Positions 9,127 through 43,541 are shown, counted from the first letter of the stretch. The stretch: DNA of 64,000 nt from an uncultured Pelagibacteraceae bacterium (GCA_902594405.1 CACJMB010000005.1:11657-75656); one strand, 5' to 3'. Notes: a model not told the origin generated them from the sequence alone. Program-made: numbers and translations.

Positions 9127-10953
9127 ATGAACTCTAATCTAAAAAATAATTTAAATGAATTATTTAATTTAGCTATTGAAAATCATCAAAAAAATAATCT
9201 AGCTGAGGCTTTAAAAATTTATGAGAATGTTCTCAAAATTGATCCTGGTCATTTTAATTCAATACTCAATTTGGGAATTTTGATGGCTCAAAAAAGCATG
9301 TTTGATAATTCATTAATATATTTTAATAAAGCGCTTAAAATTCAACCTGATAATCCAGATATTTTAAACAATCTAGGTCTAGTTAATCGTGATTTGGGTA
9401 ATTTATCTGAAAGTATTAAATTTTTTCAAAAAGCAATAGATATTAAAAAAGATTTTTTTGTTGCCTATAACAATTTAGGAATAATTTACAAAGAACAAGG
9501 TAAATTTGAAAATGCAAAAAGTAATTTTTTAAAATCAATTGAAATAAATTCAATTTATAGTGATCCATACAATAATTTAGGTTTAATTTACAAAGATGAA
9601 AATAAAATTGACCAAGCAGAAAAATATTTTTTAAAAACAATTGAATTAGATCCAAAAAATTTACATGCAATTAATAATTTAGGTAATTTATTAAAAAATA
9701 AAGGTGAAATTTTACAAGCTGAAAAGTATTTTAATAAAGCGATAGAAATTAATAATAAATACTTCGACTCGTTTAATAATTTAATGGATTTATATGAAAG
9801 AACGAATAAAAATGAAAAATTAATTGAAATTATAAATAAAGCAAAAAAATACTTTCCTAATAATTTAGTAGTTGAATTATTTTATGGTCAATATCTCTAC
9901 AAAGTTGAAAAATATAAAGAGTCTATAAATTGCTTAAATAAAATTTCATTTAATGACAATGAATTGAAAAGAGAAAAATTTAAATCACTAATACTTGCAA
10001 AAAGTTATGATAAAATCAATGATGTTGATCAAGCCTATAAATTTTTTGAAATTACAAATAACATTAATCTTCAATTAAAAGATATTAAGATTAATAAAAA
10101 TAATTTTTTAAATATTATAAATGAAAGATTTACTTTTTTTGAAACATATAAAAAAATAGTAAATGATCATGAAAATGAAACTGTTGATAAGAGCCCTATA
10201 TTTTTAATTGGTTTTCCTAGATCTGGAACCACTCTATTAGATACAATTTTAAGATCACATAAGTGTATAGAAGTTATAGAAGAAAAACCAGCAGTGCAAA
10301 ATTTAATTTCGTCAATTAACGCATATACAAAAGGAAATTTTGAAAATTTAGATAATTTAAATCAATTCCAAAAATATCTTTTAAGAGATGAATATTTTAA
10401 AAACTTAAACAGTTATATTGGAAAAAAAAATTATAAAGATATTGTCTTAGATAAAATGCCACTTAATATTATTTATGTTGGTGAAATAATAAAAATTTTT
10501 CCAAATGCAAAATTTATTTTATCATTACGACATCCGTATGACTCTGTCCTAAGTTGTTTTATGCAAAGTTTTGAATTAAACAGCGCTATGTCTAATTTTT
10601 TAAATCTAAATGATAGTGCAATTTTATATGATTTAGTAATGAAGTTATGGAAAGTATATACTGAGAAATTAAATATCAATTATCATATAATAAAATATGA
10701 GGAAATTATAAATGACTTTAATAATACAATTGAAAAAACCTTAAATTTTATCGATTTAAAATGGTCTGATGATTTAAAAAAATTTTATGAAACAGCAAGA
10801 AAAAGAAATTTGATAAACACGCCTAGTTATAATCAGGTAAATAAACCTTTATATAGTAGTTCTATAAATAGATGGAAAAAATATGATAATAAAATTAATA
10901 ATATTTTTCCAATTTTAGATAAATGGGTTAATGAATTTCAATATAAGACATAA
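9127..10953 (+). CDS. TPR-repeat protein with C-terminal sulfotransferase domain
   Basis: Tandem YNNLG-type TPRs, then the PAPS-binding GFPRSGTTL, DKMPLN and RHPYD motifs. Confidence 0.9.
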   Translation: MNSNLKNNLNELFNLAIENHQKNNLAEALKIYENVLKIDPGHFNSILNLGILMAQKSMFDNSLIYFNKALKIQPDNPDILNNLGLVNRDLGNLSESIKFFQKAIDIKKDFFVAYNNLGIIYKEQGKFENAKSNFLKSIEINSIYSDPYNNLGLIYKDENKIDQAEKYFLKTIELDPKNLHAINNLGNLLKNKGEILQAEKYFNKAIEINNKYFDSFNNLMDLYERTNKNEKLIEIINKAKKYFPNNLVVELFYGQYLYKVEKYKESINCLNKISFNDNELKREKFKSLILAKSYDKINDVDQAYKFFEITNNINLQLKDIKINKNNFLNIINERFTFFETYKKIVNDHENETVDKSPIFLIGFPRSGTTLLDTILRSHKCIEVIEEKPAVQNLISSINAYTKGNFENLDNLNQFQKYLLRDEYFKNLNSYIGKKNYKDIVLDKMPLNIIYVGEIIKIFPNAKFILSLRHPYDSVLSCFMQSFELNSAMSNFLNLNDSAILYDLVMKLWKVYTEKLNINYHIIKYEEIINDFNNTIEKTLNFIDLKWSDDLKKFYETARKRNLINTPSYNQVNKPLYSSSINRWKKYDNKINNIFPILDKWVNEFQYKT

Positions 10954-11457: not shown

Positions 11458-12282
11458 ATGACTTATCTATCTTCAAATCAACTTAAACAGTATGAAGATC
11501 AAGGTTATATATCCCCTATTGAAGTTTTGTCTAGTCGTGAAGCATTAGAGACAAGAGAAGAAATAGAATTAATTGAAAAAAAAATGCCAAATGAAATAGA
11601 TAAGTCGGGAAGATATAATGTTCATTTAATTTCTCCAAAACTTGATTCGATCGTTCATAATTCTAAAATTTTAGATGCTGTAGAAAGTATTATCGGAAAA
11701 AATATCTTAGTTTGTAGCACTACTTTATTTATTAAAAACCCTAACGAGCAAGGTTTTGTAAGCTATCACCAAGATGCAAAGTACATAGGATTAGAGCCTC
11801 ACAATTGGGTCACAGCATGGGTCGCATTAACAGACTCGAATGAAAACAACGGGTGTATGAAAATGTGGCCTAAATCACATTTAAATATTAAAGATCACAA
11901 TGAGAAATTTAATGAAGGCAACTTGCTTACTCGAGGACAAACAGTAGAGAATGTACCTGAGGACAAAGTTAAGTCTATAGAACTAAAAGCTGGTCAAATG
12001 TCTTTGCATCATCCAAGAATAGTCCATGGGTCAGGAATAAATAAGAGTAATGATAGAAGAATAGGATTTGTTATTCAAAGTTATATAGGGACAAACGTAA
12101 AACAAACCTTAGGTAAAAATGGTGTTCAAGTTGCAAGAGGAGAGGATAAATACCATCATCATGAAATTATAAATAGAACTAATGCTTTAATGAGTGAAGA
12201 AAGTATTTTACTTCGAAAAAAAGAAAATGATTATTTGCAGGAAATTTTTTATAAAGGTGCAAAACAAAAAGGATCTTACTAG
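11458..12282 (+). CDS. Phytanoyl-CoA dioxygenase (PhyH)-family Fe(II)/2-oxoglutarate dioxygenase
   Basis: FIK...YHQD (HxD) motif, distal His in IVHGS, and conserved Arg in DRRIG. Confidence 0.9.
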   Translation: MTYLSSNQLKQYEDQGYISPIEVLSSREALETREEIELIEKKMPNEIDKSGRYNVHLISPKLDSIVHNSKILDAVESIIGKNILVCSTTLFIKNPNEQGFVSYHQDAKYIGLEPHNWVTAWVALTDSNENNGCMKMWPKSHLNIKDHNEKFNEGNLLTRGQTVENVPEDKVKSIELKAGQMSLHHPRIVHGSGINKSNDRRIGFVIQSYIGTNVKQTLGKNGVQVARGEDKYHHHEIINRTNALMSEESILLRKKENDYLQEIFYKGAKQKGSY

Positions 12283-12285
12283 TTT

Positions 12286-13296
12286 ATGAAAAAAGCACTT
12301 AACCTTGGAGTAATCGGAATAGATCATGGTCATATTTTCGATATGCTAGATGAAATGATTAAAGAAGGTTGTAGCTGTAATTATTTTTGGACAGATGGAG
12401 ATCCTTTAACTCTTAAAGAATTTAATAAAAAATATCCAAATATTAAAAGAAAAGAAAATAAAGAGGAAATATTAAATGACTCATCTATTGATATGATTTT
12501 AATATCTTCAATCCCTGTAGATAGAGCTGGTCATTCAATAGACGCATTAAAAGCTGGTAAAGATGTTATGGTAGATAAACCAGGCTGTACTACCTTAGAT
12601 CAGTTAAATAATTTAAAAAACGTTGTTAAAGAAACTGGAAAGATATGGTCTGTAAATTTTTCTGAAAGATTTCACGTTGCTGCAGTTGCTAAAGCTGAAG
12701 AATTAGTCAATGAGGGAAAAATTGGTAAAGTAAAGCAAACGATTGGTACAGGTCCCCATAGACAGGGTAATTATGAAAGACCTGATTGGTTTTATAATCG
12801 TCAAAGTTATGGAGGAATTATTACCGATATTGGTTCTCACCAAATTCATCAATTTTTGGTTTTTACAAATTCAAATCAAGCAAAAATCAACCATGCATTA
12901 GTAGAAAATACTACAAAGAAAGATATGCCTGGTTTTCAAGATTTTGGCGAAGTGAACCTTACTGGTAATGGTGGGCATGGTTATATTCGCCTAGATTGGT
13001 TTACTCCAGATGCCCTTCCAACCTGGGGAGATGGCAGATTGTTAATCCTTGGAGACAAAGGTTTTATTGAAATAAGAAAATATACAGACCTAGCAAAATC
13101 AGAAAAAGGTAATCATTTATTTTTAGCAAATAATGATGAGGTGAAGCATATTGATTGTTCTAATGTTAAACTACCCTACTTTAGCAATTTAATTACTGAT
13201 GTTTTAAACAGAACAGAAACTGCATGTCCTCAAGATCTTACTTATCTTTCAATGGAACTTGCTATTAAAGCTCAAGAGCAAGCCGAAAAAAAATGA
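12286..13296 (+). CDS. Gfo/Idh/MocA-family oxidoreductase
   Basis: Rossmann GVIGIDHGH, GKDVMVDKPG and DIGSHQI motifs. Confidence 0.9.
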   Translation: MKKALNLGVIGIDHGHIFDMLDEMIKEGCSCNYFWTDGDPLTLKEFNKKYPNIKRKENKEEILNDSSIDMILISSIPVDRAGHSIDALKAGKDVMVDKPGCTTLDQLNNLKNVVKETGKIWSVNFSERFHVAAVAKAEELVNEGKIGKVKQTIGTGPHRQGNYERPDWFYNRQSYGGIITDIGSHQIHQFLVFTNSNQAKINHALVENTTKKDMPGFQDFGEVNLTGNGGHGYIRLDWFTPDALPTWGDGRLLILGDKGFIEIRKYTDLAKSEKGNHLFLANNDEVKHIDCSNVKLPYFSNLITDVLNRTETACPQDLTYLSMELAIKAQEQAEKK

Positions 13297-14372
13297 AAAA
13301 ATATCAAGTTGCAATAATTGGTACCAATATAGGGGCAAAACATTTTGAAGATTTTCAAAAAGTATCTGAGAGATTTAGTATTCACACATTATGTGGTTTA
13401 ACTCGGGAGGCTATTGATAAAATATTACAATTAAATACTGAGACAAAAGTTTCTCTAAATTTTGATGATGTATTAAAAGTTAAAGAAATTGATATTATTG
13501 ATATTTGTCTCCCACCCCATTTACATTTTTCTGCTTGTAAAAAAGCTATAGAAGCTGGAAAGCATGTGATTTGTGAAAAACCATTAGTTTCAAGTCTTAA
13601 AGAAATAGATGAATTAGAAAAAATTAGCAAAGAAACTGGCAAAATTATTTTTCCAGTATTTCAATATCGATATGGTCTAGGATTTTCAAAATTAAAAGCA
13701 TTGATCAAATCTGGTTTAGCAGGAAACCCTTTGGTTGCTTCTTTAGAAACTCATTGGAATAGAGGTAAAGATTATTATTCAAAACCTTGGAGAGGAACTT
13801 GGGAAGGTGAACAAGGTGGGGCAATTTTAAGTCACTCTATTCATATTCATGATTTAGTTAGTATGATCCTGGGGCCTGTCTCAAATATTTTTGCAAAATT
13901 AACAACTAGAGTAAATGATATTGAAGTTGAAGATTGTGCAGCTCTTTCTATTGAAATGGAAAACGGCACATTAGTTACAAGTTCAATTACATTGGGTGCA
14001 GCAAATGATACGAGTAGACTTCGATTTTGTTTTGAAGGGTTAACAGCTGAGTCTGGTGCATCACCAGATAAACCATATAGTCCAGCTGATGATAAATGGG
14101 ACTTTTTACCAAGAGCACCTATAACTCAAGCTCAAATAGATGAAGTGCTATCAAAGGTAAAAGAACCAAAATCATGGTATGCAGGTATGTTTGAAGAAAT
14201 TGCTAATAAACTAGATGGATATCCTAGTGATGAAGTAACTTTATCAGATGCTAGAAAATCTCTAGAATTTGTAACCGCTGTGTATGATTCTTCTAGACAA
14301 AATAAGAATATTAAACTTCCAATTAATAAAGATAATCCTTTATATAATTCTTGGTTACCTTTAAATAATTAA
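13293..14372 (+). CDS. Gfo/Idh/MocA-family oxidoreductase
   Basis: GKHVICEKPL, EQGGAILSHSIHIHD and EVED motifs. Confidence 0.9.
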   Translation: MKKYQVAIIGTNIGAKHFEDFQKVSERFSIHTLCGLTREAIDKILQLNTETKVSLNFDDVLKVKEIDIIDICLPPHLHFSACKKAIEAGKHVICEKPLVSSLKEIDELEKISKETGKIIFPVFQYRYGLGFSKLKALIKSGLAGNPLVASLETHWNRGKDYYSKPWRGTWEGEQGGAILSHSIHIHDLVSMILGPVSNIFAKLTTRVNDIEVEDCAALSIEMENGTLVTSSITLGAANDTSRLRFCFEGLTAESGASPDKPYSPADDKWDFLPRAPITQAQIDEVLSKVKEPKSWYAGMFEEIANKLDGYPSDEVTLSDARKSLEFVTAVYDSSRQNKNIKLPINKDNPLYNSWLPLNN

Positions 14373-14374
14373 AC

Positions 14375-14842
14375 ATGTCAGATTCAAATAAAGCACCAAA
14401 CGATTTTTTTGATAATTGGAATAAAATCCAATCAATGTCGTATAAAAATGTCATTGAGCTACTTGTAAAGAGAAGTAGTGAAAAAAAGATATTAGCTTTA
14501 ATTCAATTTGAATTAGATCAATTTTCAGAAAATGTTCAAAAGGATTTGACTATTTCAGAAACAAGTTCTTTCTATCAAGAAATATCTAATCTTTTCAGAG
14601 ATTCAAACTGGTGGTCAACCGCTACAGTAACAGATGCTTGTAAATATTACTTAAACTGTGCAAGAAATAATATTTCTTATTTTAAAAACTATGTGGAGGC
14701 AGATAGTGATTTGTCTCAAAATCAAAAAAATGAGATATTTGCTTTATATCAATTGTGCACTTTATTTGTTTCTTGGAATGCCAGTAAAGACAAACAAATC
14801 AGAGAAATTATAGATATTAGAAAAAGTTTATTTTTTAGATAA
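14375..14842 (+). CDS. Hypothetical protein, 155 aa
   Basis: Clean ORF starting 2 nt after the upstream stop; no motif recognised. Confidence 0.6.
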   Translation: MSDSNKAPNDFFDNWNKIQSMSYKNVIELLVKRSSEKKILALIQFELDQFSENVQKDLTISETSSFYQEISNLFRDSNWWSTATVTDACKYYLNCARNNISYFKNYVEADSDLSQNQKNEIFALYQLCTLFVSWNASKDKQIREIIDIRKSLFFR

Positions 14843-14850
14843 AACTAAAC

Positions 14851-14913
14851 TGTATGAACAAAGAAAACGCAAGTAAACTCTGGAAAATTATTCAGGATGC
14901 TGGCGATTATTTG
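14851..14913 (+). repeat. 63-bp direct repeat, left copy (partner at 18821..18883)
   Basis: 61 of 63 positions are identical by manual alignment; mismatches at 14859/18829 and 14898/18868. Confidence 0.95.
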
Positions 14914-14922
14914 GGGTGCTAG
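14854..14922 (+). pseudogene. Truncated duplicate (22 codons) of the 5' end of the 75-aa gene at 18824
   Basis: Reads MNKENASKLWKIIQDAGDYL-GC-stop, versus MNKENASKLWKIIQEAGDYLLG at 18824. Confidence 0.85.
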
Positions 14923-14930
14923 TGGTACAC

Positions 14931-14965
14931 CCTACCTGACACTACCTCACACTACTTCACACTAG
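14931..14965 (+). repeat. Imperfect 10-bp tandem repeats (cctacctgac actacctcac actacttcac actag)
   Basis: Read directly from the sequence; 10-nt period, 3 to 3.5 units. Confidence 0.75.
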
Positions 14966-15030
14966 CTATGCGGACTATTTAATTTTCATCAAAAATAATT
15001 TGCTTAAAGACTCATCAATTTAAGCAATAA

Positions 15031-15067
15031 ACTAGTCCCCAAACTAGAACATATTGAGATAAATCAA
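15031..15067 (+). repeat. Repeat R1 (37 bp) ACTAGTCCCCAAACTAGAACATATTGAGATAAATCAA
   Basis: One of three near-identical intergenic copies (15031, 16989, 18774). Confidence 0.95.
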
Positions 15068-15121
15068 ATAGCCATTTTTAAGTAATTAGACTCTCTATTT
15101 ATGATTTGGTAATCTTGGATC

Positions 15122-16423
15122 ATGAGCTTAAGTACTGAACTTAAAAAAAAAATTGCTAGAGTAAAACTTAAAGAGTCAGGAACATTTGTTTCTATTTATG
15201 CAGGAGATCTTATTTATGATATCTTGCGCGTTGATCCTAGAGTCGTAGATGGTGTTGATTTTCTTCGAAAAGATGATTTGTCCAGTGTATTAAAGTTTGG
15301 AAAACAAGAGATTGCAGATAGAGCAGAAAAATCAAAAGAATCTTTATCTGGATTACATGACAGTTACACTGGATACACTTTTGAAAGAGTTGTTGCCTTG
15401 GATTTTCAACAGAGAGGTTCTGAAGTTCAATTCCCAAATTCAGCTCAACAATCTGGTCATGATCTTGTAATTAATGGTGAAAAGTTTCAAGTAAAGACCC
15501 AGGGGGACGGTATAGATATAATTGAGAGACATTTTGAAAAATATCCAAACATTAGAGTAATTGCAAACAGTGAAGCTCATGAAAAGTTTATAGAAAAGTA
15601 TCCTGAAAAAGCACATTTGGTTATGAATAGTGGATTTAGCCACGATCAAACTGAAAACCTGGTTAAAGAAAGTACAGACGCAGCTGTGGAAGTATTTGAA
15701 GACAATAATTTATTTGGAAGTGCAATTCCTGAAATACTTGGAATCGTTTCAATTATTTCTATTGGAAAAAATTTTATGAATTGGGCAGAGGGAAATACAA
15801 ATGTTGAGACAGCATTAAAAAATGTTGCAATCGATAGTGTAGGAAAATTTGCAGGAGCTGGAGTAGGTGCAAAATTAGGTTCTTTTATACTGCCACCTTT
15901 TGGAACTATAGTTGGTGGCACACTAGGATTTGTTTTTGGTGGCAACTTAGCTAATGAATATAAAATTGATAATTACTGCAAATATGAAATGGAAAATTTA
16001 GATAAAGCAATTGATGATTATTTAAAAAAAAGTGAGGAGATAATAAGTAAAAATAATAAAAATTTTGAAAAGAAAGTAAAATATTTAACCGAAAAATTAA
16101 AAAATAAAAAAGGTGAAAGAGCTAGAGAGTTTGAATTATTTATTAATAAAAAAATTTTAAGAGAAAGAAAAGATAAACAAGGAATTCTAAATACACTTAG
16201 AAAATATTTTAAAAAATCTAGACGAGGTATCGAAAAATTTGAGGAACTATCTAAGAAATTTAAAGATAAGACTAGTTCAACGAAATATAATCATTACGCA
16301 CTAGAAGCATTAAATTTGTCAGCAGAAAATGGCGTTATGCCAGAGTTTATCCCTTTCGAAGCAGATAATTTATTTGATAAAGTTAAGAAATTTATGGAAG
16401 CAGCAAAAAAACACGGTGTTTAA
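15122..16423 (+). CDS. Hypothetical protein with putative PD-(D/E)xK-like nuclease motif, glycine-zipper TM segment and Lys/Glu-rich C-terminus
   Basis: GYTFERVV...GHDLVINGEKFQVKT (E...D...QxK) followed by AGAGVGAKLGSFILPPFGTIVGGTLGFVFGG. The nuclease call is inferred from the motif only. Confidence 0.55.
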   Translation: MSLSTELKKKIARVKLKESGTFVSIYAGDLIYDILRVDPRVVDGVDFLRKDDLSSVLKFGKQEIADRAEKSKESLSGLHDSYTGYTFERVVALDFQQRGSEVQFPNSAQQSGHDLVINGEKFQVKTQGDGIDIIERHFEKYPNIRVIANSEAHEKFIEKYPEKAHLVMNSGFSHDQTENLVKESTDAAVEVFEDNNLFGSAIPEILGIVSIISIGKNFMNWAEGNTNVETALKNVAIDSVGKFAGAGVGAKLGSFILPPFGTIVGGTLGFVFGGNLANEYKIDNYCKYEMENLDKAIDDYLKKSEEIISKNNKNFEKKVKYLTEKLKNKKGERAREFELFINKKILRERKDKQGILNTLRKYFKKSRRGIEKFEELSKKFKDKTSSTKYNHYALEALNLSAENGVMPEFIPFEADNLFDKVKKFMEAAKKHGV

Positions 16424-16429
16424 AATAAG

Positions 16430-16771
16430 ATGTTTAATTGGATTAAAAGTAAAATCTCTAAAAAAATTAATTCAGAAATGGATGGATGCATTTTGCAAAA
16501 TCTTAATTTTGTAAATATGGTTGAGAAGGAACAATATATTTTTAAGAAAAATATTGACCAGACTATAATGAATCGAATTTATGAGATCAAAGAACAAACT
16601 GAAAAATATGATAAAATTAAAAAAGCTGGTGATAACTTTACCCCTAAAGAAACAGATGATTTGTTGGAAATGAATATGCATTGTAGAAACATTTGGAAAA
16701 CTTATTTTAATAAAACCGCTTTTGAGTTTGATAAAATATTTTCAAGTGATGATCTTGACAGTGATAACTAG
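16430..16771 (+). CDS. Hypothetical protein, 113 aa
   Basis: ORF begins 6 nt after the upstream stop on the same strand. Confidence 0.6.
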   Translation: MFNWIKSKISKKINSEMDGCILQNLNFVNMVEKEQYIFKKNIDQTIMNRIYEIKEQTEKYDKIKKAGDNFTPKETDDLLEMNMHCRNIWKTYFNKTAFEFDKIFSSDDLDSDN

Positions 16772-16791
16772 AGTATCTAACCTAATTAAGT

Positions 16792-16971
16792 ATGACAAAT
16801 TGGCAAATAATTTTAGCGATTATAATTGTTGGATTGTCAATTGTTATGCCAATTTACTATTCTCAAAAAAGAAAGAAAGAAAATCAAACCAAACAAGAAG
16901 CAATTGAGCGTATGCAAATTCGAGAATATGGTAGAAAAATAAACGACGAAACTAGAGCAAAGAAAAAATAA
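16792..16971 (+). CDS. Small single-pass membrane protein, 59 aa (not in the ORF track)
   Basis: Manual translation MTNWQIILAIIIVGLSIVMPIYYSQKRKKENQTKQEAIERMQIREYGRKINDETRAKKK: a hydrophobic N-terminus followed by a basic tail. Confidence 0.7.
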   Translation: MTNWQIILAIIIVGLSIVMPIYYSQKRKKENQTKQEAIERMQIREYGRKINDETRAKKK

Positions 16972-16988
16972 ATTAAATTTTATTGAAA

Positions 16989-17025
16989 ACTATTCCCCAA
17001 ACTAGAACATTTAGAGATAAATCAA
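16989..17025 (+). repeat. Repeat R2 (37 bp) ACTATTCCCCAAACTAGAACATTTAGAGATAAATCAA
   Basis: Second copy of R, lying between cassette A and the SDR-TetR cassette. Confidence 0.95.
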
Positions 17026-17054
17026 AATAGTAATTTATATCAAAATAAGTATTT

Positions 17055-17101
17055 GTCAACAGTTGTTGATAAAATAATAATATAAGTCAACAGTTGTTGA
17101 C
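17055..17101. promoter_or_regulatory. Two palindromic operator candidates GTCAACA-GT-TGTTGA(T/C) at 17055..17070 and 17086..17101
   Basis: The second copy is a perfect 7-2-7 inverted repeat. Both lie upstream of the SDR gene that is paired with a TetR gene. Confidence 0.75.
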
Positions 17102-17147
17102 TCTTTAAATAATAACTTCTAAATTTTATCTAAAAAAAGGAGCAATT

Positions 17148-18101
17148 ATGAAAAATGAAAATAAAAATATGAGTCGAAGACAAGCAATTAAGGGAATTGG
17201 TGCAGTAGCATTAGGTACCACAGCATTAGCAGCTTCAAGTACTGCTAAAGCGAATGAAAAAAAAACAAAAAAAGAACTTGAAGGAAAAACAGCTCTGATC
17301 ACAGGTGGAGCACGTGGCATTGGTTTGGCTAGTGCTGAAGAGCTTGCAAAAGCAGGAGCAAATATCGTTCTTTTTGATGTAGCAAGTGATTTAGAGGGTG
17401 TAAATTATCCTTTGGCCACTGATTTAGATCTAGCAAATGCAAAAAGTAAAGTAGAGTCTTATGGTGTTAAATGTATTTCTTATAAAGGAGATGTAAGAGA
17501 TAGATCTGCCCTATCAGATGCTGTTGGTATGGCTGTTAAGCAGTTTGGAACATTAGATCATGTTGTAGCAAATGCAGGAGTAACACAAATTGGAATGATG
17601 GAATATTTCAGTGAAAAAGAAATTCAAACTGTAATTGATATAAATGTGACTGGAGTTGTGAAAACTATACAAGCTTCTATACCAGTTATGAGAAAACAAA
17701 ATTCTGGGGGAATAACTATTTTATCTTCAGTTTTAGGACGTATGGGTGAAGAGTGGTTTCCAGTTTATTCTGGTACCAAGTGGGCTGTAATTGGATTAGC
17801 AAAAAGTACCGCTTTAATTATGGGAAAGCATAACGTTACTTGCAATGCTATATGTCCAACTGTTGTAAAAACTAAACTCATGAACAATAAATATGTTCTA
17901 GGAGCAATGTCTCCTGAAAACCCAACATGGGAAGGTTTAGAAACGTTAATGAAACAATGGAGAAACCCTCTTCCAATGGGAGCATATAACCCTAATGAGA
18001 TTGGTGAAATGGTTAAATTCTTTGCTAGTAAAAGTGGTGAAAAAATTACTGGTGAAGTTCTAGGAGTAGCAGCAGGTTTATTTGCTCGGAATACTGCTTA
18101 A
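17148..18101 (+). CDS. SDR oxidoreductase with Tat signal peptide, resembling the mycofactocin-associated/carveol dehydrogenase SDR subfamily
   Basis: SRRQAIKG twin-arginine motif plus hydrophobic stretch and AKA cleavage site; TGGARGIG, VVANAG and YSGTK motifs; the DVASDLEGVNYPLATDLDLA insert. Confidence 0.8.
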   Translation: MKNENKNMSRRQAIKGIGAVALGTTALAASSTAKANEKKTKKELEGKTALITGGARGIGLASAEELAKAGANIVLFDVASDLEGVNYPLATDLDLANAKSKVESYGVKCISYKGDVRDRSALSDAVGMAVKQFGTLDHVVANAGVTQIGMMEYFSEKEIQTVIDINVTGVVKTIQASIPVMRKQNSGGITILSSVLGRMGEEWFPVYSGTKWAVIGLAKSTALIMGKHNVTCNAICPTVVKTKLMNNKYVLGAMSPENPTWEGLETLMKQWRNPLPMGAYNPNEIGEMVKFFASKSGEKITGEVLGVAAGLFARNTA

Positions 18102-18159
18102 ATATTCTTCCTCTCGGATCAATCTTTAAGACCCTATTTGAATTGATCTAAAAAACTAT

Positions 18160-18190
18160 AAGTCACCTTGTATTTATTATAAGGTGACTT
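18160..18190. promoter_or_regulatory. 10-bp inverted repeat AAGTCACCTT-N11-AAGGTGACTT upstream of tetR (operator or hairpin)
   Basis: Perfect inverted repeat in the SDR-TetR intergenic space. Confidence 0.55.
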
Positions 18191-18208
18191 GTTATATTTT
18201 TTTAAAAG

Positions 18209-18754
18209 ATGAGAAATTCAAATAATTCAAAAAAAATAATTTTTAATACTGCTAAAAAGCTTTTCTGGACGAAAGGTTATTCAAATGTTTCAGTTCGAGA
18301 TATTGCCAAACAATCTAAATATGACATCGCTCTTATCTCTAGGTACTTCGGCAGTAAGAAAAAGCTTTTTGAAGAAACATTAAAAGATGTTGCAGAATGG
18401 TTTGTTGATGTAAATCCAAATAATATTGTTGATTTTATGGTTGAAGGCCTAATGGAAAATTCAAATCCAAAAGATGATGTAAACCTTGTTAGAATGCTGT
18501 GTATGAATTCTGGTGATCCAGAAGTTGGACATATAGTCAAAAAATTTCATAGAGAAAAAATGAGAAAACCAGTAATTGATGGGATAAGGAAAAAAATTAA
18601 ACCTATCAATTACGATTTAATGGGTGCAATTTTAGTAGGGGTTTCTGTTGCACGAAAAACTCTCGACAATCCTATTTTAAGCAAACTGAATGATAGAGAA
18701 TATGAAAAGATATTAAGGCATTTATTTAATGCAGCGTTAAATTATAAAAACTAA
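18209..18754 (+). CDS. TetR/AcrR-family transcriptional regulator
   Basis: N-terminal HTH: IFNTAKKLFWTKGYSNVSVRDIAKQSKYDIALISRYFGSKKKLF. Confidence 0.92.
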   Translation: MRNSNNSKKIIFNTAKKLFWTKGYSNVSVRDIAKQSKYDIALISRYFGSKKKLFEETLKDVAEWFVDVNPNNIVDFMVEGLMENSNPKDDVNLVRMLCMNSGDPEVGHIVKKFHREKMRKPVIDGIRKKIKPINYDLMGAILVGVSVARKTLDNPILSKLNDREYEKILRHLFNAALNYKN

Positions 18755-18773
18755 TTATAGGATTTTATGGGAT

Positions 18774-18810
18774 ACTAGTCCCCAAACTAGAACATTTGGA
18801 GATAAAACAA
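18774..18810 (+). repeat. Repeat R3 (37 bp) ACTAGTCCCCAAACTAGAACATTTGGAGATAAAACAA
   Basis: Third copy of R, ending 13 nt before the ATG at 18824. Confidence 0.95.
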
Positions 18811-18823
18811 GAATTTAGGTTGT

Positions 18824-19051
18824 ATGAATAAAGAAAACGCAAGTAAACTCTGGAAAATTATTCAGGAAGCTGGCGATTATTTGTTGGGGCAATTACCTGA
18901 TCACCCAAATCACCCCAAAGGAAGAAACCCCTATGCTCATGTTGCTATTTGTGTGAAGAGTAAGTTTAACGCAAGTTATAAAGACATTCCTGATGAACAA
19001 TATGATGAAGTGATAAAATATATTGAGTTTTTAAAAGAAAATCCTAGTTAG
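18824..19051 (+). CDS. Small hypothetical protein, 75 aa (apparent integration target)
   Basis: Intact ORF whose first 20 codons are duplicated at 14854. Confidence 0.75.
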   Translation: MNKENASKLWKIIQEAGDYLLGQLPDHPNHPKGRNPYAHVAICVKSKFNASYKDIPDEQYDEVIKYIEFLKENPS

Positions 19052-20093
19052 CTTTAATTATATCTAACAATTCGTCAACATCACTATCTTTAGTATTCCA
19101 AGCAGCAACTAATCTTACCGCTTTACCATCTAATTCTTCTTCATTCATTTTATAACCTTCAGAATTTAGATGTTCTATTTTTTCTCTTGGAAATTTTGCA
19201 AAAACTTCATTTGCTTCTGTTGGATAAGCAATTTCAATATCATTATACTTACTTAGACCATCACTTAATTTTTTACCCATAGCATTGGCATGTTTTGCAT
19301 TTCTTAACCAAACATCATTTGAAATGTATGCATCGAGTTGAGCAGAAACAAAACGCATTTTAGATAATAAGTGCCCTGCTCTTTTCATTAAAAAAGTAAT
19401 GTCTCCAACTAATTCTTTCTTAAAAAAAATGATTGCTTCAGCTGCTAAACATCCATTTTTAGTTGCGCCAAATGACAATACATCAACCCCTGATTTCCAT
19501 GTCATTTCAGCAGGAGTAACATCTAAAGAAACCAATGCATTAGCAAATCTTGCTCCATCCATATGTAAATTTAAATTATGTTTATGAGTGATTTCTGCAA
19601 TTTTTTTGATTTCATCTAATTGGTAAACTTCACCTGTTTCACACACTTGAGTGATACTGACTGATGAAGGTTGTGTATGATGAACAATCCCTTTTCCCCC
19701 AATAGATTGATCTAACTCCTCTGCAGTTATTTTTCCCATTACCCCATTTAATGTAACTAACTTTCCTCCTCCTGTATAAAATTCAGGTGCACCACATTCA
19801 TCAGTATTTATATGGGACATCTTATGACAATAAATGTTTCCATAAGAAGGTGTCATTGTAGATAATGCTAAAGCATTAGCAGCTGTTCCTGATGCAGTAG
19901 GAAATACAATTACTTCTTTTTCAAATATTTCTGAAAACTTGTCTTGTAATTCAGTTGATATTGGGTCATTCCCATAAGGAGTACTATCTCCCTCATTGGC
20001 TTTTAAAATTGCATCTAATACTTCAGGACAAGCACCAGCAACATTATCAGAAGCGAATTTAACTCGCTCTCTTTTTATTTTAATTTTTGCCAT
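19044..20093 (-). CDS. ltaE: Low-specificity L-threonine aldolase (PLP)
   Basis: FASDN, SGTAANAL, LHMDGARFANA and the PLP-lysine motif SFGATKNG. Confidence 0.88.
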   Translation of the reverse strand: MAKIKIKRERVKFASDNVAGACPEVLDAILKANEGDSTPYGNDPISTELQDKFSEIFEKEVIVFPTASGTAANALALSTMTPSYGNIYCHKMSHINTDECGAPEFYTGGGKLVTLNGVMGKITAEELDQSIGGKGIVHHTQPSSVSITQVCETGEVYQLDEIKKIAEITHKHNLNLHMDGARFANALVSLDVTPAEMTWKSGVDVLSFGATKNGCLAAEAIIFFKKELVGDITFLMKRAGHLLSKMRFVSAQLDAYISNDVWLRNAKHANAMGKKLSDGLSKYNDIEIAYPTEANEVFAKFPREKIEHLNSEGYKMNEEELDGKAVRLVAAWNTKDSDVDELLDIIKAN

Positions 20094-20095
20094 AA

Positions 20096-21211
20096 TTATT
20101 GTTTTGGAAAGTAATCTTTAAGTTCACCCTCTCGGTAAACATCTGCAGTACAACAATGTAAACCTCCACCAAAAGCGTATGCATCTCTAAGTTCTACTGG
20201 TATAACTTCCATTCCTAATTTATCTAATTGTTCAGCTTGATATTTTTCACTTTTTTCCACACATACAGTTTTAGGATCTAAAACTAAAACATTCATTGAT
20301 AACCAAGTTGATGAATAACATAATGGTGGTGGTTCGTTATGAGCTGGTTGTGCACTGTCTACGATTTCCCAACCATTGTCTTCAAATAATTTTCTTTGTT
20401 CCTTAGGAAGTCTTCTTTGTGGGTTATTGATAATTAAACCCTCTTTAATTGGGGTAAAAGTTGCATCAATGTGAATTGGATAAGGATCACCTGGGAAGTT
20501 AACTGCATGAACTCTGTGATCTTTATAATGTCTCTTTAGCCAATCAATTCCTTTTAAATTTGTTGTAAAACCATGTTGAACAACTAAATCTTTTCCAAAT
20601 CTCAATACATCTGCTGCATCAAATAATGGTTCTTCCTCAGTGGTTACAAAATATTTTTTTTCAGTCCACTCTAATCTTTTTTGAACACCAATTTTATCTG
20701 ATAAATAATCTTTTCTGTAATCTGCATCCGTTAATCTTGGTTTTGGAGCAGACTCGTGTCTCATATTAGGATCTTGATTATAATAATCTTTTAGAAGTGG
20801 TCGGTAACATAAATATTCAAACCAACGACAACGATAACTCATTGTAGCTTCTAAAATTTCGTTTCCCACAGTTAACAAAACATCTCTTGGGGGCATGCAG
20901 CCAAACATTGTTTCTGCTTCCCAATCAGGTGTAGATGTTTTTTGATTAAAATCTATTGGTGTCGGTCGATCAACTTTAATACCTCTTTTTTCAAGCATAT
21001 TTGAAAAGTTATCTAATAATTCATTTGCTTTATCGACAGTATCTTTTGTTCTTGGACCAAACTGACCCCGCATATCACTATCTTCTGGAACTTTTGCATC
21101 TAATGCAGGCTCTGGTGCTGGTATACAAGTACCATCCGCTCTACCAACAATTACATGTTTTAACGGATCCCACTCATTCCAACTATTAACAATAGTTTTA
21201 TTCTCGCTCAT
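20096..21211 (-). CDS. Amidinotransferase (glycine/inosamine-phosphate amidinotransferase family)
   Basis: SWNEWDPLKHVIVG, PRD, FDAAD, HIDAT and GGGLHCCT, giving an intact Asp/His/Cys triad. Confidence 0.9.
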   Translation of the reverse strand: MSENKTIVNSWNEWDPLKHVIVGRADGTCIPAPEPALDAKVPEDSDMRGQFGPRTKDTVDKANELLDNFSNMLEKRGIKVDRPTPIDFNQKTSTPDWEAETMFGCMPPRDVLLTVGNEILEATMSYRCRWFEYLCYRPLLKDYYNQDPNMRHESAPKPRLTDADYRKDYLSDKIGVQKRLEWTEKKYFVTTEEEPLFDAADVLRFGKDLVVQHGFTTNLKGIDWLKRHYKDHRVHAVNFPGDPYPIHIDATFTPIKEGLIINNPQRRLPKEQRKLFEDNGWEIVDSAQPAHNEPPPLCYSSTWLSMNVLVLDPKTVCVEKSEKYQAEQLDKLGMEVIPVELRDAYAFGGGLHCCTADVYREGELKDYFPKQ

Positions 21212-21216
21212 AAAGA

Positions 21217-22434
21217 TTAGTTTTTTATAATATTATGCTCAGGCCCGAAAGGAAATTTTGTAATATTTTCTGCTCCATCTTTACCAATCACCAAAATATC
21301 ATGTTCTCTATATCCACCAGCGCCAGGATTACCCTCTGGGATCATGATCATTGGCTCCATCGACACGACCATATTTTCCTCAAGAACAGTATCAATATCT
21401 TCTCTTAATTCTAAACCAGCTTCTCTTCCATAAAAGTGTGAAAGCATACCAAATGAATGTCCGTAACCAAAAGTTCGGTACTGAAGGTAACCAAGTTCAG
21501 CAAACAATTCATTTAACTCATGACAAATATCTGAACATTTAACACCTGGTTTAATCAATTCTAATCCACGTTTGTGAACTTTAACATTTGCTTCCCAAGC
21601 TTTAAGTGAAGCATCATCAGCATGGTCCAAAAACAAAGTTCGCTCTAGTGCGGTGTAGTAACCTGAGATCATAGGAAAAGTATTTAAAGATAAAATATCT
21701 CCTTTAACTAATTTTCTATTAGTCTTTGGATTGTGAGCTCCATCTGTATTGATACCAGATTGAAACCATACCCAAGTATCCATGTACTCTGCACCTGGAT
21801 AGCTTTTAACAATCTCTCTTTCCATTCTATCTCTTGCTGCTATTGCTACTTCGATCTCTGTATTATCTTCTCTAATATTTTTAACTATTTCTTCACCACC
21901 AATGTCTGCAATTCTTGCACCATTTCTAATGATCTCTATTTCTTCGTTTGATTTAATCATTCTAAGTTTCATTAGATCCTTTGAAACATCACTAAACACA
22001 GAGAAAGTAAAAATAGACCCTATTTTTTCTCGCATATCTAACGTGACATGATCATTTTCAATTCCAATATTTTTTGGAGGTTCATCTCTTCCTATAATTG
22101 AAACAATGGCTCTTAAAAAATTATCCCTTTTCCAATCAGTGTAAATAACGTTATCACAATGAGATCTACGCCATGGTTGACTTGCATCAATGTTAGCTGA
22201 AATTGTTGAGATTTTATTTTGAGTGATCACACATCCGTATGGTCTTCCAAAAGAGCAATAAATAAATCCGGTGTAATATGCAACGTTATGCATTGAGGTT
22301 AAGATAACCATATCTAAATTATTTTTATCCATCACTGATCTAAGTTTGCTTACTCGATCGTTATATTCTTTATCGGTAAATGGTAATTTTACTTTTTCAC
22401 CGTTTTTAAGTTCAAAAAAATCTGGTCGTTCCAT
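21217..22434 (-). CDS. Creatinase (creatine amidinohydrolase, M24 fold)
   Basis: YCSFGRPYG, WFQSGINTDGAHNP, YTALERT, GHSFG and SMEP motifs. Confidence 0.88.
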   Translation of the reverse strand: MERPDFFELKNGEKVKLPFTDKEYNDRVSKLRSVMDKNNLDMVILTSMHNVAYYTGFIYCSFGRPYGCVITQNKISTISANIDASQPWRRSHCDNVIYTDWKRDNFLRAIVSIIGRDEPPKNIGIENDHVTLDMREKIGSIFTFSVFSDVSKDLMKLRMIKSNEEIEIIRNGARIADIGGEEIVKNIREDNTEIEVAIAARDRMEREIVKSYPGAEYMDTWVWFQSGINTDGAHNPKTNRKLVKGDILSLNTFPMISGYYTALERTLFLDHADDASLKAWEANVKVHKRGLELIKPGVKCSDICHELNELFAELGYLQYRTFGYGHSFGMLSHFYGREAGLELREDIDTVLEENMVVSMEPMIMIPEGNPGAGGYREHDILVIGKDGAENITKFPFGPEHNIIKN

Positions 22435-43359: not shown

Positions 43360-43506
43360 TTTGCCCCCTCTGTCTTGGTGCCTGAGAGATTTGCTCCGTC
43401 GGCGAGAATAATTCTCTTTCCAGAGTTAATATGTACGGTCCTTTTGCCTGAGAGTTTCCGGGGTGGTTGCTCCTTCGGCGCTACAAAAGTAGTCTCTCCC
43501 GTATAT
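43360..43506 (-). ncRNA. Tandem glycine riboswitch
   Basis: Minus strand reads GGGAGAGAC...CGCCGAAGGAGCAA...CTCTCAGGCAAAAGGACCG (aptamer I) and CTCTGGAAAGAG...CGCCGACGGAGCAA...CTCTCAGGCACCAAGACAGAG (aptamer II), directly upstream of gcvT. Confidence 0.96.
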
Positions 43507-43541
43507 AAATTTATAACACATTTAGAATGTTTATGTGAATT

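What the first reader, a model, noticed from the sequence alone, without database searches (positions are those of the whole stretch)
14851..18883. 63-bp duplication of a gene's 5' end brackets the island (attL/attR-like, target gene restored)
Seen: 14851..14913 matches 18821..18883 at 61 of 63 nt. The left copy dies after 22 codons while the right copy continues as an intact 75-aa gene. Both mismatches are at third codon positions (AAC/AAT Asn/Asn; GAT/GAA Asp/Glu), as expected for two functional alleles rather than random decay. Established: integrative elements that target a gene's 5' end carry a replacement fragment that restores the gene. Inference: the element entered with a donor allele of this small protein-coding gene (not a tRNA), and the gene is valuable enough to be preserved.
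Basis: partly seen in the sequence, partly recalled or inferred. Interest (0 to 1): 0.75.

Follow-up and report, generated by a model that had tools for sequence, protein, structure and literature searches.

The report
Integrase-less island at a Pelagibacter att site
The 63-base duplication is real and marks the two ends (attL/attR) of a small cargo island left by a family of integrase-carrying mobile elements that repeatedly insert into the first 60 bases of a conserved 75-codon Pelagibacter (SAR11) gene and rebuild that gene; the mechanism is a familiar one, but this target site and its heavy use do not appear in the papers I searched.

Summary
In detail: 14851-14913 and 18821-18883 match at 61 of 63 bases. 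The left copy stops after 22 codons; the right copy opens an intact 75-aa gene (geneX).

The attL/attR reading is supported.
- Among 79 Pelagibacter genome loci, 19 are empty sites with one geneX directly after the upstream gene. 29 carry the element's right arm 46 nt before the conserved core (about 25 nt before the geneX start codon). 17 carry truncated 60-nt copies, and 5 carry two.
- A circular 9-kb viral contig (L081) and a Tara contig (L086) carry attP next to a 568-571-aa tyrosine recombinase.
- L086's arms match the window's: 58 of 58 nt after the core, and the same arm repeats.
- Intact integrated elements sit at this locus in two other genomes (L082, L083).

The window's island has no integrase. 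It holds two cargo modules: a 433-aa glycine-zipper protein with two small ORFs, and a Tat-signal SDR with a TetR regulator. Three copies of a 40-nt arm motif bound them, and the middle copy is a P/P' hybrid. The likeliest origin is two non-autonomous units integrated in tandem, whose internal junction later collapsed.

GeneX's first 20 codons show depressed synonymous diversity, ending exactly at the repeat boundary.

Verdict: new member of a known kind (tycheposon/satellite/CIME-like), of moderate interest.

The parts
14375..14842 (+). Conserved chromosomal 155-aa gene (no Pfam family). This is the B arm of the attachment site. In empty-site relatives its stop lies a few nt (gap of 3-9 nt by blastn) before the start of geneX.
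14851..14913 (+). attL copy of the 63-nt repeat. It holds the first 60 nt of geneX (ATG at 14854). The truncated ORF 14854-14922 has 22 codons plus a TAG stop.
14875..14913 (+). 39-nt common core AAACTCTGGAAAATTATTCAGGA(T/A)GCTGGCGATTATTTG. This is the only stretch shared by attB, attP, attL and attR, so strand exchange must lie within it. Its second copy is at 18845-18883.
14914..14971 (+). Proximal part of the P' arm, 58/58 identical to the integrase-bearing element L086. It supplies the stop codon and four 10-nt-period repeats (CACCCTACCT GACACTACCT CACACTACTT CACACTAGCT), which are putative protein-binding sites.
14972..15028 (+). Spacer specific to the integrase-less class of elements, including AAGACTCATCAATTTAAGCAA at 15007-15027. 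More than 120 metagenome contigs hold this sequence.
15029..15067 (+). Motif A, the P'-arm motif: two type-specific direct repeats (AACTAGTCCCC, AAACTAGAACAT) plus the conserved box GAGATAAATCAA. It starts 181 nt after the start of the core, the same spacing as in most other islands (181-183 nt). In autonomous elements this motif overlaps the start of the integrase ORF.
15068..15121 (+). Leader shared by several integrase-less units (ATAGCCATTTTTAAGTAATTAGACTC...GATTTGGTAATCT...ATG), placed before the first cargo gene.
15122..16971 (+). Cargo module 1: a 433-aa protein with a glycine-zipper segment (15122-16423), a 113-aa ORF (16430-16771) and a 59-aa membrane ORF (16792-16971). Functions are unknown. 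The module is rare in metagenomes (k-mer depth about 1-90, mostly 7-25).
16987..17025 (+). Motif B, a hybrid arm motif of the same repeat type. Its left flank resembles the P arm (motif C) and its right flank resembles the P' arm (motif A). I interpret it as the collapsed junction of two tandem units.
17057..17106 (+). Two copies of TTGTCAACAGTTGTTGA upstream of the SDR gene. They look like an operator for the module's TetR regulator (inference).
17148..18754 (+). Cargo module 2: a 317-aa short-chain dehydrogenase with a twin-arginine-like signal (17148-18101), a terminator-like hairpin (18158-18192) and a 181-aa TetR-family regulator (18209-18754). Its metagenome k-mer depth is roughly 10 to several hundred times that of module 1, depending on the run.
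18756..18820 (+). P arm: TATAGGAT-type repeats, then motif C (ACTAGTCCCC, AAACTAGAACAT, box GAGATAAAACAA at 18799-18810), then 10 nt up to the repeat. The repeats are identical to the P arm of L086. This arm replaces geneX's native upstream region.
18821..18883 (+). attR copy of the 63-nt repeat.
18824..19051 (+). geneX, an intact 75-aa conserved SAR11 protein. The AlphaFold2 model has three helices with pLDDT 93.4. There is only a faint resemblance to the ORF6C / Bro-N-associated C-terminal domain. Function is unknown.

Best explanation
The region 14851-18883 is a non-autonomous (integrase-less) integrative island. It sits in the attachment site of a family of Pelagibacter mobile elements that encode a 560-590-aa tyrosine recombinase.

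The site and the reaction. attB is the 5' end of geneX. An element's attP holds a copy of the first 60 nt of geneX, of which the last 39 nt are near-identical to the host. This copy lies between a P arm and a P' arm. The P arm has two type-specific direct repeats and a GAGATAAA[A/T]CAA box. The P' arm has a stop codon, four 10-nt repeats and a second copy of the same motif, which overlaps the integrase start. Recombination inside the 39-nt core leaves a dead 22-codon stub joined to the P' arm (attL). It also leaves a rebuilt geneX whose upstream region, and potentially its first codons, come from the element (attR).

The window's island. It keeps both arms, of the same repeat type as the autonomous element L086, but has no integrase or replication genes. 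It carries two cargo modules separated by a P/P' hybrid motif. The likeliest history is that two non-autonomous units of one type integrated in tandem. The internal attR/attL junction was then lost by recombination between the directly repeated arm motifs.

Shown and inferred. Shown: the att architecture, empty sites, attP on elements that carry an integrase, the catalytic residues, the modular distribution of the cargo, and the nucleotide-level constraint on the core. Inferred: that the repeats are integrase arm-type binding sites, that the P arm drives geneX expression, that integrase-less units are moved in trans or in cis by cognate integrases, and the tandem-then-collapse history.
For: Repeat and anatomy of the island.

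Empty and occupied sites. Of 79 genome loci, 19 are empty, 29 carry the P-arm motif at -46, 17 have at least one truncated copy and 5 have at least two. No locus is both empty and motif-bearing. The truncation point is constant at gene nt 60. The spacing core -> +53 repeats -> +181 motif is nearly constant (181-183 nt).

Autonomous elements.
- L081 is circular (29-bp terminal overlap). It carries motif-core-arm-motif directly before a 568-aa ORF with a weak Phage_integrase hit, plus an AEP primase/DUF5906 protein.
- L086 carries attP with the window's own repeat type and 58/58 nt of the window's P' arm.
- L083 and L082 are intact integrated elements (integrase ... primase ... geneX) followed by the same downstream genes as the window (Beta_elim_lyase, Creatinase/M24 and, in L083, ADI-like and EamA).
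- The integrase family has 349 clusters. R383, K410, K504-x-x-R507, H531 and Y541 are invariant in 118 members.

Arm repeats. P' and P repeat types match within a unit (identity 0.78) and differ between units (0.56), p = 2.6e-7. This holds even inside one array.

Core constraint. Synonymous diversity is 0.13 in codons 2-20 against 0.32 in codons 21-75, p = 3e-5, with the jump exactly at codon 21.

Modularity in metagenomes. Depth differs strongly between the modules. Contig joints 15035->17001 skip module 1. Joints 14843/4->18823/44 are the empty-site form.

Absence of integrase in the window and in L001-L080: no tblastn hit to any L081 protein, and the window's island ORFs have no recombinase domain.

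Solo scars of 227 bp (stub + arm + one motif + geneX) occur in L069 and L072.
Against: - No recombination was observed directly. All evidence is comparative.
- No circular or excised copy of an integrase-less unit was found among 120 metagenome contigs that hold its left arm, so its present mobility is unproven.
- The crossover point inside the 39 nt cannot be placed. The two mismatches are consistent with an exchange between gene nt 6 and 45 but are also ordinary polymorphisms.
- No sigma-70-like promoter is predicted in the P arm, and a metatranscriptome contig runs from the TetR gene through motif C into geneX. GeneX may therefore be expressed by read-through rather than from an element promoter.
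- Low synonymous diversity at a gene's 5' end can also reflect translation-initiation constraints, though that would not predict a step exactly at codon 21.
Confidence: 0.85

Rival explanations
1. Integron-like cassette platform. The 40-nt motif (two direct repeats plus the GAGATAAA[A/T]CAA box) would itself be a dedicated recombination site. Single cargo modules would be inserted, excised and shuffled at it, independently of the geneX core, by an integrase acting in trans.
For: - Every module boundary in the window is a motif copy.
- Internal motifs without a geneX stub recur in other arrays: L036, L041, L047, L049, L068, L106, L174.
- Metagenome contigs join motif A to motif B and skip module 1 precisely.
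- Solo scars keep exactly one motif.
- The two modules have very different abundances.
Against: - The motif is part of both att arms of the autonomous elements and overlaps the integrase start. Directly repeated 40-nt copies would also recombine by ordinary homologous recombination, which fits the same data.
- No integron-type integrase, attI or hairpin-forming attC is present.
- No circular single-module molecule was found.
- Motif B is a P/P' hybrid, as expected from the collapse of a tandem junction.
Confidence: 0.2
2. Immobile fossil. One or a few ancient integrations left the stub and arms. Since then the island has been immobile, and its cargo is swapped between strains only by homologous recombination, using the conserved stub/arm on the left and geneX on the right as homology arms.
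For: - None of the 79 genome loci with islands in the species-representative set holds an integrase.
- No excised integrase-less circle was found.
- A study of SAR11 genomic islands reports essentially no canonical mobile elements in them (PMC11796062).
- High recombination in SAR11 is established knowledge.
Against: - There are at least 10 distinct repeat types, each matched at both ends of its unit, and different types sit side by side in one array. This argues for repeated independent integrations of discrete units.
- Up to two stubs occur per locus, giving three copies of the 5' end with the intact gene.
- Arms are well preserved: 58/58 nt identical to a live element.
- Cognate integrase-bearing elements exist today in metagenomes, in a viral-contig collection and integrated in SAGs.
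Confidence: 0.3
3. Artefact or chance. The duplication would be an assembly error or a local slippage duplication unrelated to mobile DNA.
For: None beyond the general possibility. The window is a single assembly of unknown provenance.
Against: The same architecture occurs in 17 independent genomes and SAGs, in more than 120 metagenome contigs and in metagenome assemblies that contain the window's own junctions. The chance expectation for the repeat is 0.
Confidence: 0.01

Closest known systems
Tycheposons of Prochlorococcus (Hackl et al.; bioRxiv 10.1101/2020.12.28.424599)
   Same: - Marine, streamlined host.
- Site-specific tyrosine recombinase plus a primase/helicase module in the autonomous forms.
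- The integrated element is flanked by a full and a partial copy of the target.
- Repeated integration at one site produces tandem arrays.
- Islands are littered with partial target copies and degenerate, cargo-only remnants.
- Cargo includes defence and metabolic genes.
   Different: - The target here is the 5' end of a protein-coding gene, not a tRNA.
- The element must supply the start codon region and the upstream sequence.
- Whether the integrase belongs to the tycheposon clades was not tested.
- The window's copy has no hallmark genes at all.
VEIMEs / marine phage satellites found integrated in Pelagibacter (Eppley et al. 2022, PMC9618062; also PMC11876622)
   Same: - Small (about 9 kb) integrative elements with a tyrosine integrase and a primase or replicative ATPase.
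- Pelagibacter hosts.
- L081 comes from a viral-contig collection and is circular.
   Different: - Packaging in virions, concatemer structure and helper dependence were not tested.
- The main texts I searched do not mention this attachment site. One of them (PMC11876622) mentions tRNAs as likely sites.
- The window holds only a cargo remnant.
CIMEs (cis-mobilizable elements) and site-specific accretion with ICEs in streptococci (recalled from memory, not checked here)
   Same: - Flanked by functional-looking att sites of an integrase-bearing relative.
- No recombination or transfer genes of their own.
- Found in tandem with autonomous elements. In L082 and L083 the integrase-bearing element is preceded by another unit's P-arm motif.
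   Different: - The partner elements here are small satellite-like replicons, not conjugative elements.
- Mobilisation has not been demonstrated.
Lambda-type attP organisation (core flanked by arm-type Int binding sites), and integrase promoters embedded in attL as in KplE1 intS (PMC2951348, listed)
   Same: - A short core of identity is flanked by arms that carry short direct repeats.
- The repeats differ between element types and co-vary on both arms.
- One repeat set overlaps the integrase start.
   Different: Binding of the repeats by the integrase N-terminal domain is inferred, not shown. The same 40-nt motif occurs in direct orientation on both arms, which makes the integrated element prone to internal deletion.

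Membership tests
Site-specific integrative island made by a tyrosine recombinase, with target gene restored | Direct repeats at both ends that equal part of the target gene; one copy truncated, one intact | tested here: met
   61/63 nt match; 22-codon stub against an intact 75-aa gene
Site-specific integrative island made by a tyrosine recombinase, with target gene restored | Relatives with an empty site carrying a single intact target | tested here: met
   19 of 79 genome loci have geneX 3-9 nt after the conserved upstream gene, with no stub and no arm motif. Empty-site joints also appear in metagenome contigs.
Site-specific integrative island made by a tyrosine recombinase, with target gene restored | A free or circular element carrying attP (P arm - core - P' arm) whose arms match attR and attL | tested here: met
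   L081 is circular and carries attP. L086's attP has the same repeat type and 58/58 nt of the window's P' arm.
Site-specific integrative island made by a tyrosine recombinase, with target gene restored | Integrase gene inside the island, next to one att site | tested here: not met
   No recombinase domain was found in the window's island ORFs. tblastn found no hit to the L081 proteins in the window. The feature is met in the relatives L082, L083, L084 and L086. The window's copy is therefore a non-autonomous derivative.
Site-specific integrative island made by a tyrosine recombinase, with target gene restored | Recombinase has the catalytic R...K...[H/K]xxR...H...Y residues | tested here: met
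   R383, K410, K504/R507, H531 and Y541 are conserved at 98% or more in 118 family members. The Pfam Phage_integrase hit is only 26.1 bits against a cut-off of 27.1.
Tycheposon | Integrase belongs to the tycheposon-specific tyrosine (or large serine) recombinase clades | not testable with these tools
Tycheposon | Integration at tRNA or tmRNA genes, leaving partial tRNA copies | tested here: not met
   There is no tRNA in the 64-kb window. The target is a protein-coding gene.
Tycheposon | Tandem arrays, degraded remnants and cargo at a conserved island position | tested here: met
   Arrays with 2 stubs occur in L007, L036, L041, L047 and L068. Solo scars occur in L069 and L072. Cargo includes restriction-modification genes.
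VEIME / phage satellite | DNA packaged in virus particles as concatemers; dependence on a helper phage | not testable with these tools
   The only pointer is that L081 is in the IMG/VR viral-contig collection.
CIME-like non-autonomous element | Bounded by att sites of an autonomous relative, and lacking recombination and replication genes | tested here: met
CIME-like non-autonomous element | Shown to excise or transfer when the cognate integrase or element is present | not testable with these tools
   No circular integrase-less unit was found among 120 contigs. An experiment is needed.
Integron | IntI-type integrase with an adjacent attI, and cassettes ending in hairpin-forming attC sites | tested here: not met
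   There is no integrase in the window. The boundary motif consists of direct repeats plus a box, and no inverted-repeat pair at the motif is among the 25 longest listed for 12000-22000.

The most novel reading that the evidence does not exclude
The integrase-less units may not be debris. They could be a large, living population of minimal 'hitcher' cassettes. Each would be a cargo module framed by a standard left arm (stub, stop codon, 10-nt repeats, conserved spacer, motif, leader) and a right arm. The variable pair of direct repeats would act as an address code that matches one of many integrase specificities. Autonomous satellite-like elements would then move these cassettes in and out of the geneX site, and perhaps between motif copies. 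That would give the most abundant marine bacterium an integron-like, multi-specificity system for exchanging cargo, anchored in a protein-coding gene's 5' end, whose nucleotide sequence is held constant by the elements.
Probability: 0.3. Interest if true: 0.75.

Novelty: new member of a known kind. Interest (0 to 1): 0.55.

Why it matters
SAR11 genomes are usually described as almost free of mobile elements. A 2025 survey of SAR11 islands reported one integrase and only tRNA/tmRNA-linked partial repeats (PMC11796062).

This locus shows a heavily used integration hotspot: at least 29 of 79 species-representative genomes are occupied. Its target is the first 60 nt of a small conserved protein gene. 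Cognate integrase-bearing elements are still circulating, and there are many cargo-only units, several carrying restriction-modification genes.

It gives a concrete, testable route for gene gain and loss in SAR11. It also gives a simple sequence signature (stub, arm and motif) for finding such islands in metagenomes, and a natural case where a coding sequence is constrained at synonymous sites by its role as an attachment site.

Tried and rejected
- **Integrase search in islands.** I looked for an integrase inside the window and in the islands of 80 relatives. A Pfam scan of 71 island ORFs listed only cargo, with many restriction-modification domains; only the top 25 of 112 families were visible. 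tblastn with all L081 proteins found nothing.
- **RNA explanations.** There is no tRNA. The only Rfam hit in the window is an unrelated glycine riboswitch.
- **Function of geneX.** Pfam, NCBIfam and PADLOC gave nothing significant. A PDB sequence profile search gave nothing. Foldseek against PDB gave a best E-value of 3.2. Foldseek against viral models gave only weak hits to C-terminal parts of Bro-N/'repressor domain' phage proteins (E 0.2-1.2, TM 0.6-0.7), in line with a sub-threshold ORF6C hit (E 0.11). This is suggestive only.
- **Viral-contig scans** for more attP copies found only L081.
- **Circular integrase-less units** among 120 metagenome contigs: none found. L116 is two different units in tandem.
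- **Promoter in the P arm:** no consensus site was predicted. Metatranscriptome contigs show that the region is in RNA libraries but give no transcription start sites.
- **Crossover position** from the two mismatches: not resolvable, because both variants are common alleles.
- **Cargo functions.** The 433-aa protein shows only a glycine-zipper segment and sub-threshold hits. No defence-system assignment was possible.

Full report
**1. The observation**

The window is an AT-rich (about 30% G+C) Pelagibacter (SAR11) chromosome segment. The 75-aa gene at 18824-19051 has 5,669 relatives in the protein collection. The few that carry a source name are from Pelagibacter, and the best genome matches are HIMB isolates and Pelagibacteraceae single-cell genomes.

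- The reported repeat is real. 14851-14913 and 18821-18883 are 63 nt long and 61/63 identical.
- A 44-nt sub-pattern occurs exactly twice, against zero in shuffles.
- It is the longest two-copy direct repeat in the 64 kb.
- The left copy reads 20 codons of the gene, then GGG TGC TAG. The right copy is the start of the intact gene, here called geneX.
- Both mismatches are third-position differences that also exist as alleles among 81 intact copies.

Three copies of a ~40-nt motif contain the exact 17-mer TCCCCAAACTAGAACAT at 15036, 16994 and 18779 (0.16 expected).

**2. Relatives: empty, occupied and multiply occupied sites**

Eighty Pelagibacter genome loci around geneX were fetched and compared with pieces of the window. 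GeneX is intact in all of them.

- In 19 loci it follows the conserved upstream gene within 3-9 nt, with no second copy.
- In 29 loci the same kind of motif as the window's motif C lies 46 nt before the conserved core, about 25 nt before the geneX start codon.
- In 17 loci one or more truncated copies of the first 60 nt lie upstream, and in 5 loci there are two.
- No locus is both empty and motif-bearing.

The truncation point is always gene nt 60. Wherever the conserved arm follows the stub, the next sequence supplies a stop at codon 23.

Spacing is nearly fixed. Four 10-nt-period repeats (consensus CACACTACNT) start 53 nt after the core start. The motif starts at +181 in most units (+181 to +183), and the next motif lies at -46 from the next core.

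Two genomes (L069, L072) carry a 227-bp solo scar: stub, arm, one motif, geneX.

**3. The elements that make these junctions**

A scan of viral contigs for the stub-arm junction found L081, a 9,070-bp contig with a 29-bp terminal overlap, so it is circular. It carries motif - 60-nt geneX 5' copy - arm repeats - second motif. A 568-aa ORF follows directly, whose start overlaps the second motif.

- That ORF has a near-threshold Phage_integrase hit.
- A 903-aa neighbour has AEP-primase and DUF5906 domains.
- The integrase has 349 relatives at E <= 1e-10.
- In 118 of them, R383, K410, K504-x-x-R507, H531 and Y541 are invariant. This is the tyrosine-recombinase catalytic set.

Two relatives lie on long contigs as intact integrated elements at this very locus: L083 (a single-cell genome) and L082. 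Each reads stub, arm, integrase, small genes, primase/helicase, motif, geneX. After geneX come the same downstream genes as the window (Beta_elim_lyase, Creatinase/M24 and, in L083, ADI-like and EamA).

The integrase N-termini encode the motif (KLxxKLxx.EIKQT). Two members (P0198, P0224) read KLVP(K/E)LEQ, which is what the window's repeats would encode.

The contig of P0224 (L086, a Tara Oceans assembly) holds an attP matching the window's:
- Its P-arm repeats (AAACTAGTCCCCAAACTAGAACAT) match the window's motif C.
- Its P' arm is identical to window 14914-14971 over 58 nt.

The four-way alignment shows the textbook arm swap around a 39-nt common core, AAACTCTGGAAAATTATTCAGGAAGCTGGCGATTATTTG. 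The four sequences are attB (L008), attP (L086), window attL and window attR.

Element copies often differ from the host in the first 21 nt (MSPEKSQ/MTPENSQ instead of MNKENAS). Some intact genes carry such element-type starts (L027, L082). This shows that the element really supplies the 5' end.

**4. What the window's island is**

None of the island's ORFs is a recombinase or replication protein. The island nevertheless has complete arms. Integrase-less islands in other genomes share a left arm of their own. After the 10-nt repeats comes a conserved spacer (AAGACTCATCAATTTAAGCAA), then the motif. In several of them a conserved leader then runs up to the first cargo gene. More than 120 metagenome contigs hold this left arm.

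Within each unit, the variable pair of direct repeats is the same at the P' and P ends. It differs between units, even between neighbours in one array: mean identity 0.78 against 0.56, p = 2.6e-7. The units are therefore discrete two-ended entities of at least ten repeat types. I interpret the repeats as arm-type binding sites of cognate integrases (inference).

The window's island contains two modules.
- Module 1 (15122-16971) encodes a 433-aa protein with a glycine-zipper segment and two small ORFs.
- Module 2 (17148-18754) encodes a short-chain dehydrogenase with a twin-arginine-like signal and a TetR regulator. Two operator-like repeats lie upstream.

The motif between them (B) has a P-like left flank and a P'-like right flank. 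In four metagenomes, module 2 has roughly 10 to several hundred times the k-mer depth of module 1. Contigs join motif A to motif B and skip module 1, and empty-site joints are present too.

The simplest history is that two units of one type integrated in tandem. The internal stub-plus-arm was then lost by recombination between the directly repeated motifs. The same process explains the solo scars.

**5. Constraint on the target**

Among 81 intact genes, synonymous diversity is 0.13 in codons 2-20 and 0.32 in codons 21-75 (p = 3e-5). It jumps to 0.50 and 0.66 at codons 21 and 22, exactly where the duplicated segment ends. Either the nucleotide sequence is selected as a recombination site, or it is homogenised by repeated replacement with element copies. 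Both readings fit an active attachment site.

**6. GeneX**

- The family is small: 269 representative clusters at E <= 0.001.
- It is strongly conserved, with the motif LP..P.HPKGRNPYAH...IK.KFG.SYKD.
- It folds with high confidence into three helices, pLDDT 93.4.
- No solved structure or curated family matches.
- Weak fold matches to C-terminal parts of phage Bro-N/'repressor domain' proteins, and a sub-threshold ORF6C hit, hint at a phage-derived small domain.
- It is present in metatranscriptome assemblies.

Its function remains unknown. That it is always restored argues that it is useful to the cell or to the elements.

**7. Comparison with what is known, and novelty**

The closest described systems are Prochlorococcus tycheposons and the VEIME satellites and other tyrosine-recombinase elements reported in Pelagibacter. 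Tycheposons show tRNA targets, tandem arrays, remnants and cargo. Cis-mobilizable elements flanked by the att sites of an autonomous relative are also close; that comparison rests on memory.

The searched texts name tRNAs as likely sites. A 2025 study of SAR11 islands found one integrase and only tRNA/tmRNA partial repeats.

The kind of system is therefore known. What I did not find described:
- the attachment site, a protein gene's 5' end with the element supplying the start region;
- its frequency of use;
- the type-matched arm repeats;
- the abundant integrase-less class.

I rate it a new member of a known kind, with interest 0.55.

**8. Limits**

- Everything is comparative.
- The integrase's action, the role of the repeats, the promoter for geneX and the present mobility of integrase-less units are all inferred.
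- The depth figures come from assembled contigs of metagenomes and are only rough.
- The Pfam survey of island ORFs in relatives showed only the top 25 families.

Noticed in passing
window 17057-17106: TTGTCAACAGTTGTTGA occurs twice, 31 nt apart, upstream of the Tat-signal SDR gene. It is probably the operator of the adjacent TetR regulator (18209-18754). One copy also scores as a minus-strand terminator-like hairpin.
   Followed up: no
P0369: A 2,693-aa protein in the representative library contains five stretches similar to geneX residues 28-66. The small domain therefore also exists as a repeat module in a giant protein.
   Followed up: no
L042:7959-8020: Directly after the GFO-family gene lies a diverged copy of the geneX first 20 codons (MNKENVSKMWKIIKEVDDYN...). 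It continues in frame into unrelated sequence. It may be an old stub fused to another ORF. Several short proteins likewise match only geneX residues 1-40/60.
   Followed up: no
L084:9566-21479: Stub, arm, motif and a 492-aa integrase are followed by at least 10 kb of small minus-strand genes (GIY-YIG, PDDEXK_1, an 852-aa protein). The upstream neighbour of the site in this genome is yajQ. This looks like a larger, perhaps phage-like, element using the same attachment site.
   Followed up: partly
window 18756-18774, and P arms of most loci: A type-independent pair of repeats (TATAGGAT-TTT-TATAGGAT; in the window TATAGGATTTTATGGGATA) lies just upstream of the type-specific repeats in the P arm of most element types. 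It is a further candidate protein-binding site.
   Followed up: no
window 18600-18883: One metatranscriptome contig spans the TetR 3' end, motif C and the geneX 5' end. RNA-library contigs also continue from the core into an arm-like sequence. Both the rebuilt gene and a stub-arm junction appear in RNA libraries, although DNA carry-over is not excluded.
   Followed up: partly
window 9127-10953: A 608-aa TPR-repeat ORF lies in a stretch of only 19-22% G+C, well below its surroundings. It may be another flexible gene.
   Followed up: no
window 43426-43511 (-): A glycine riboswitch aptamer (Rfam RF00504, 70.5 bits), as expected for SAR11.
   Followed up: no
islands of L011, L015, L018, L036, L048, L074 and others: Cargo at this site in relatives is rich in restriction-modification and helicase-nuclease genes: ResIII, Mrr_cat_2, N6_N4_Mtase, EcoRI methylase, type I S subunits and C5 methylase. 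The hotspot therefore doubles as a defence island.
   Followed up: partly
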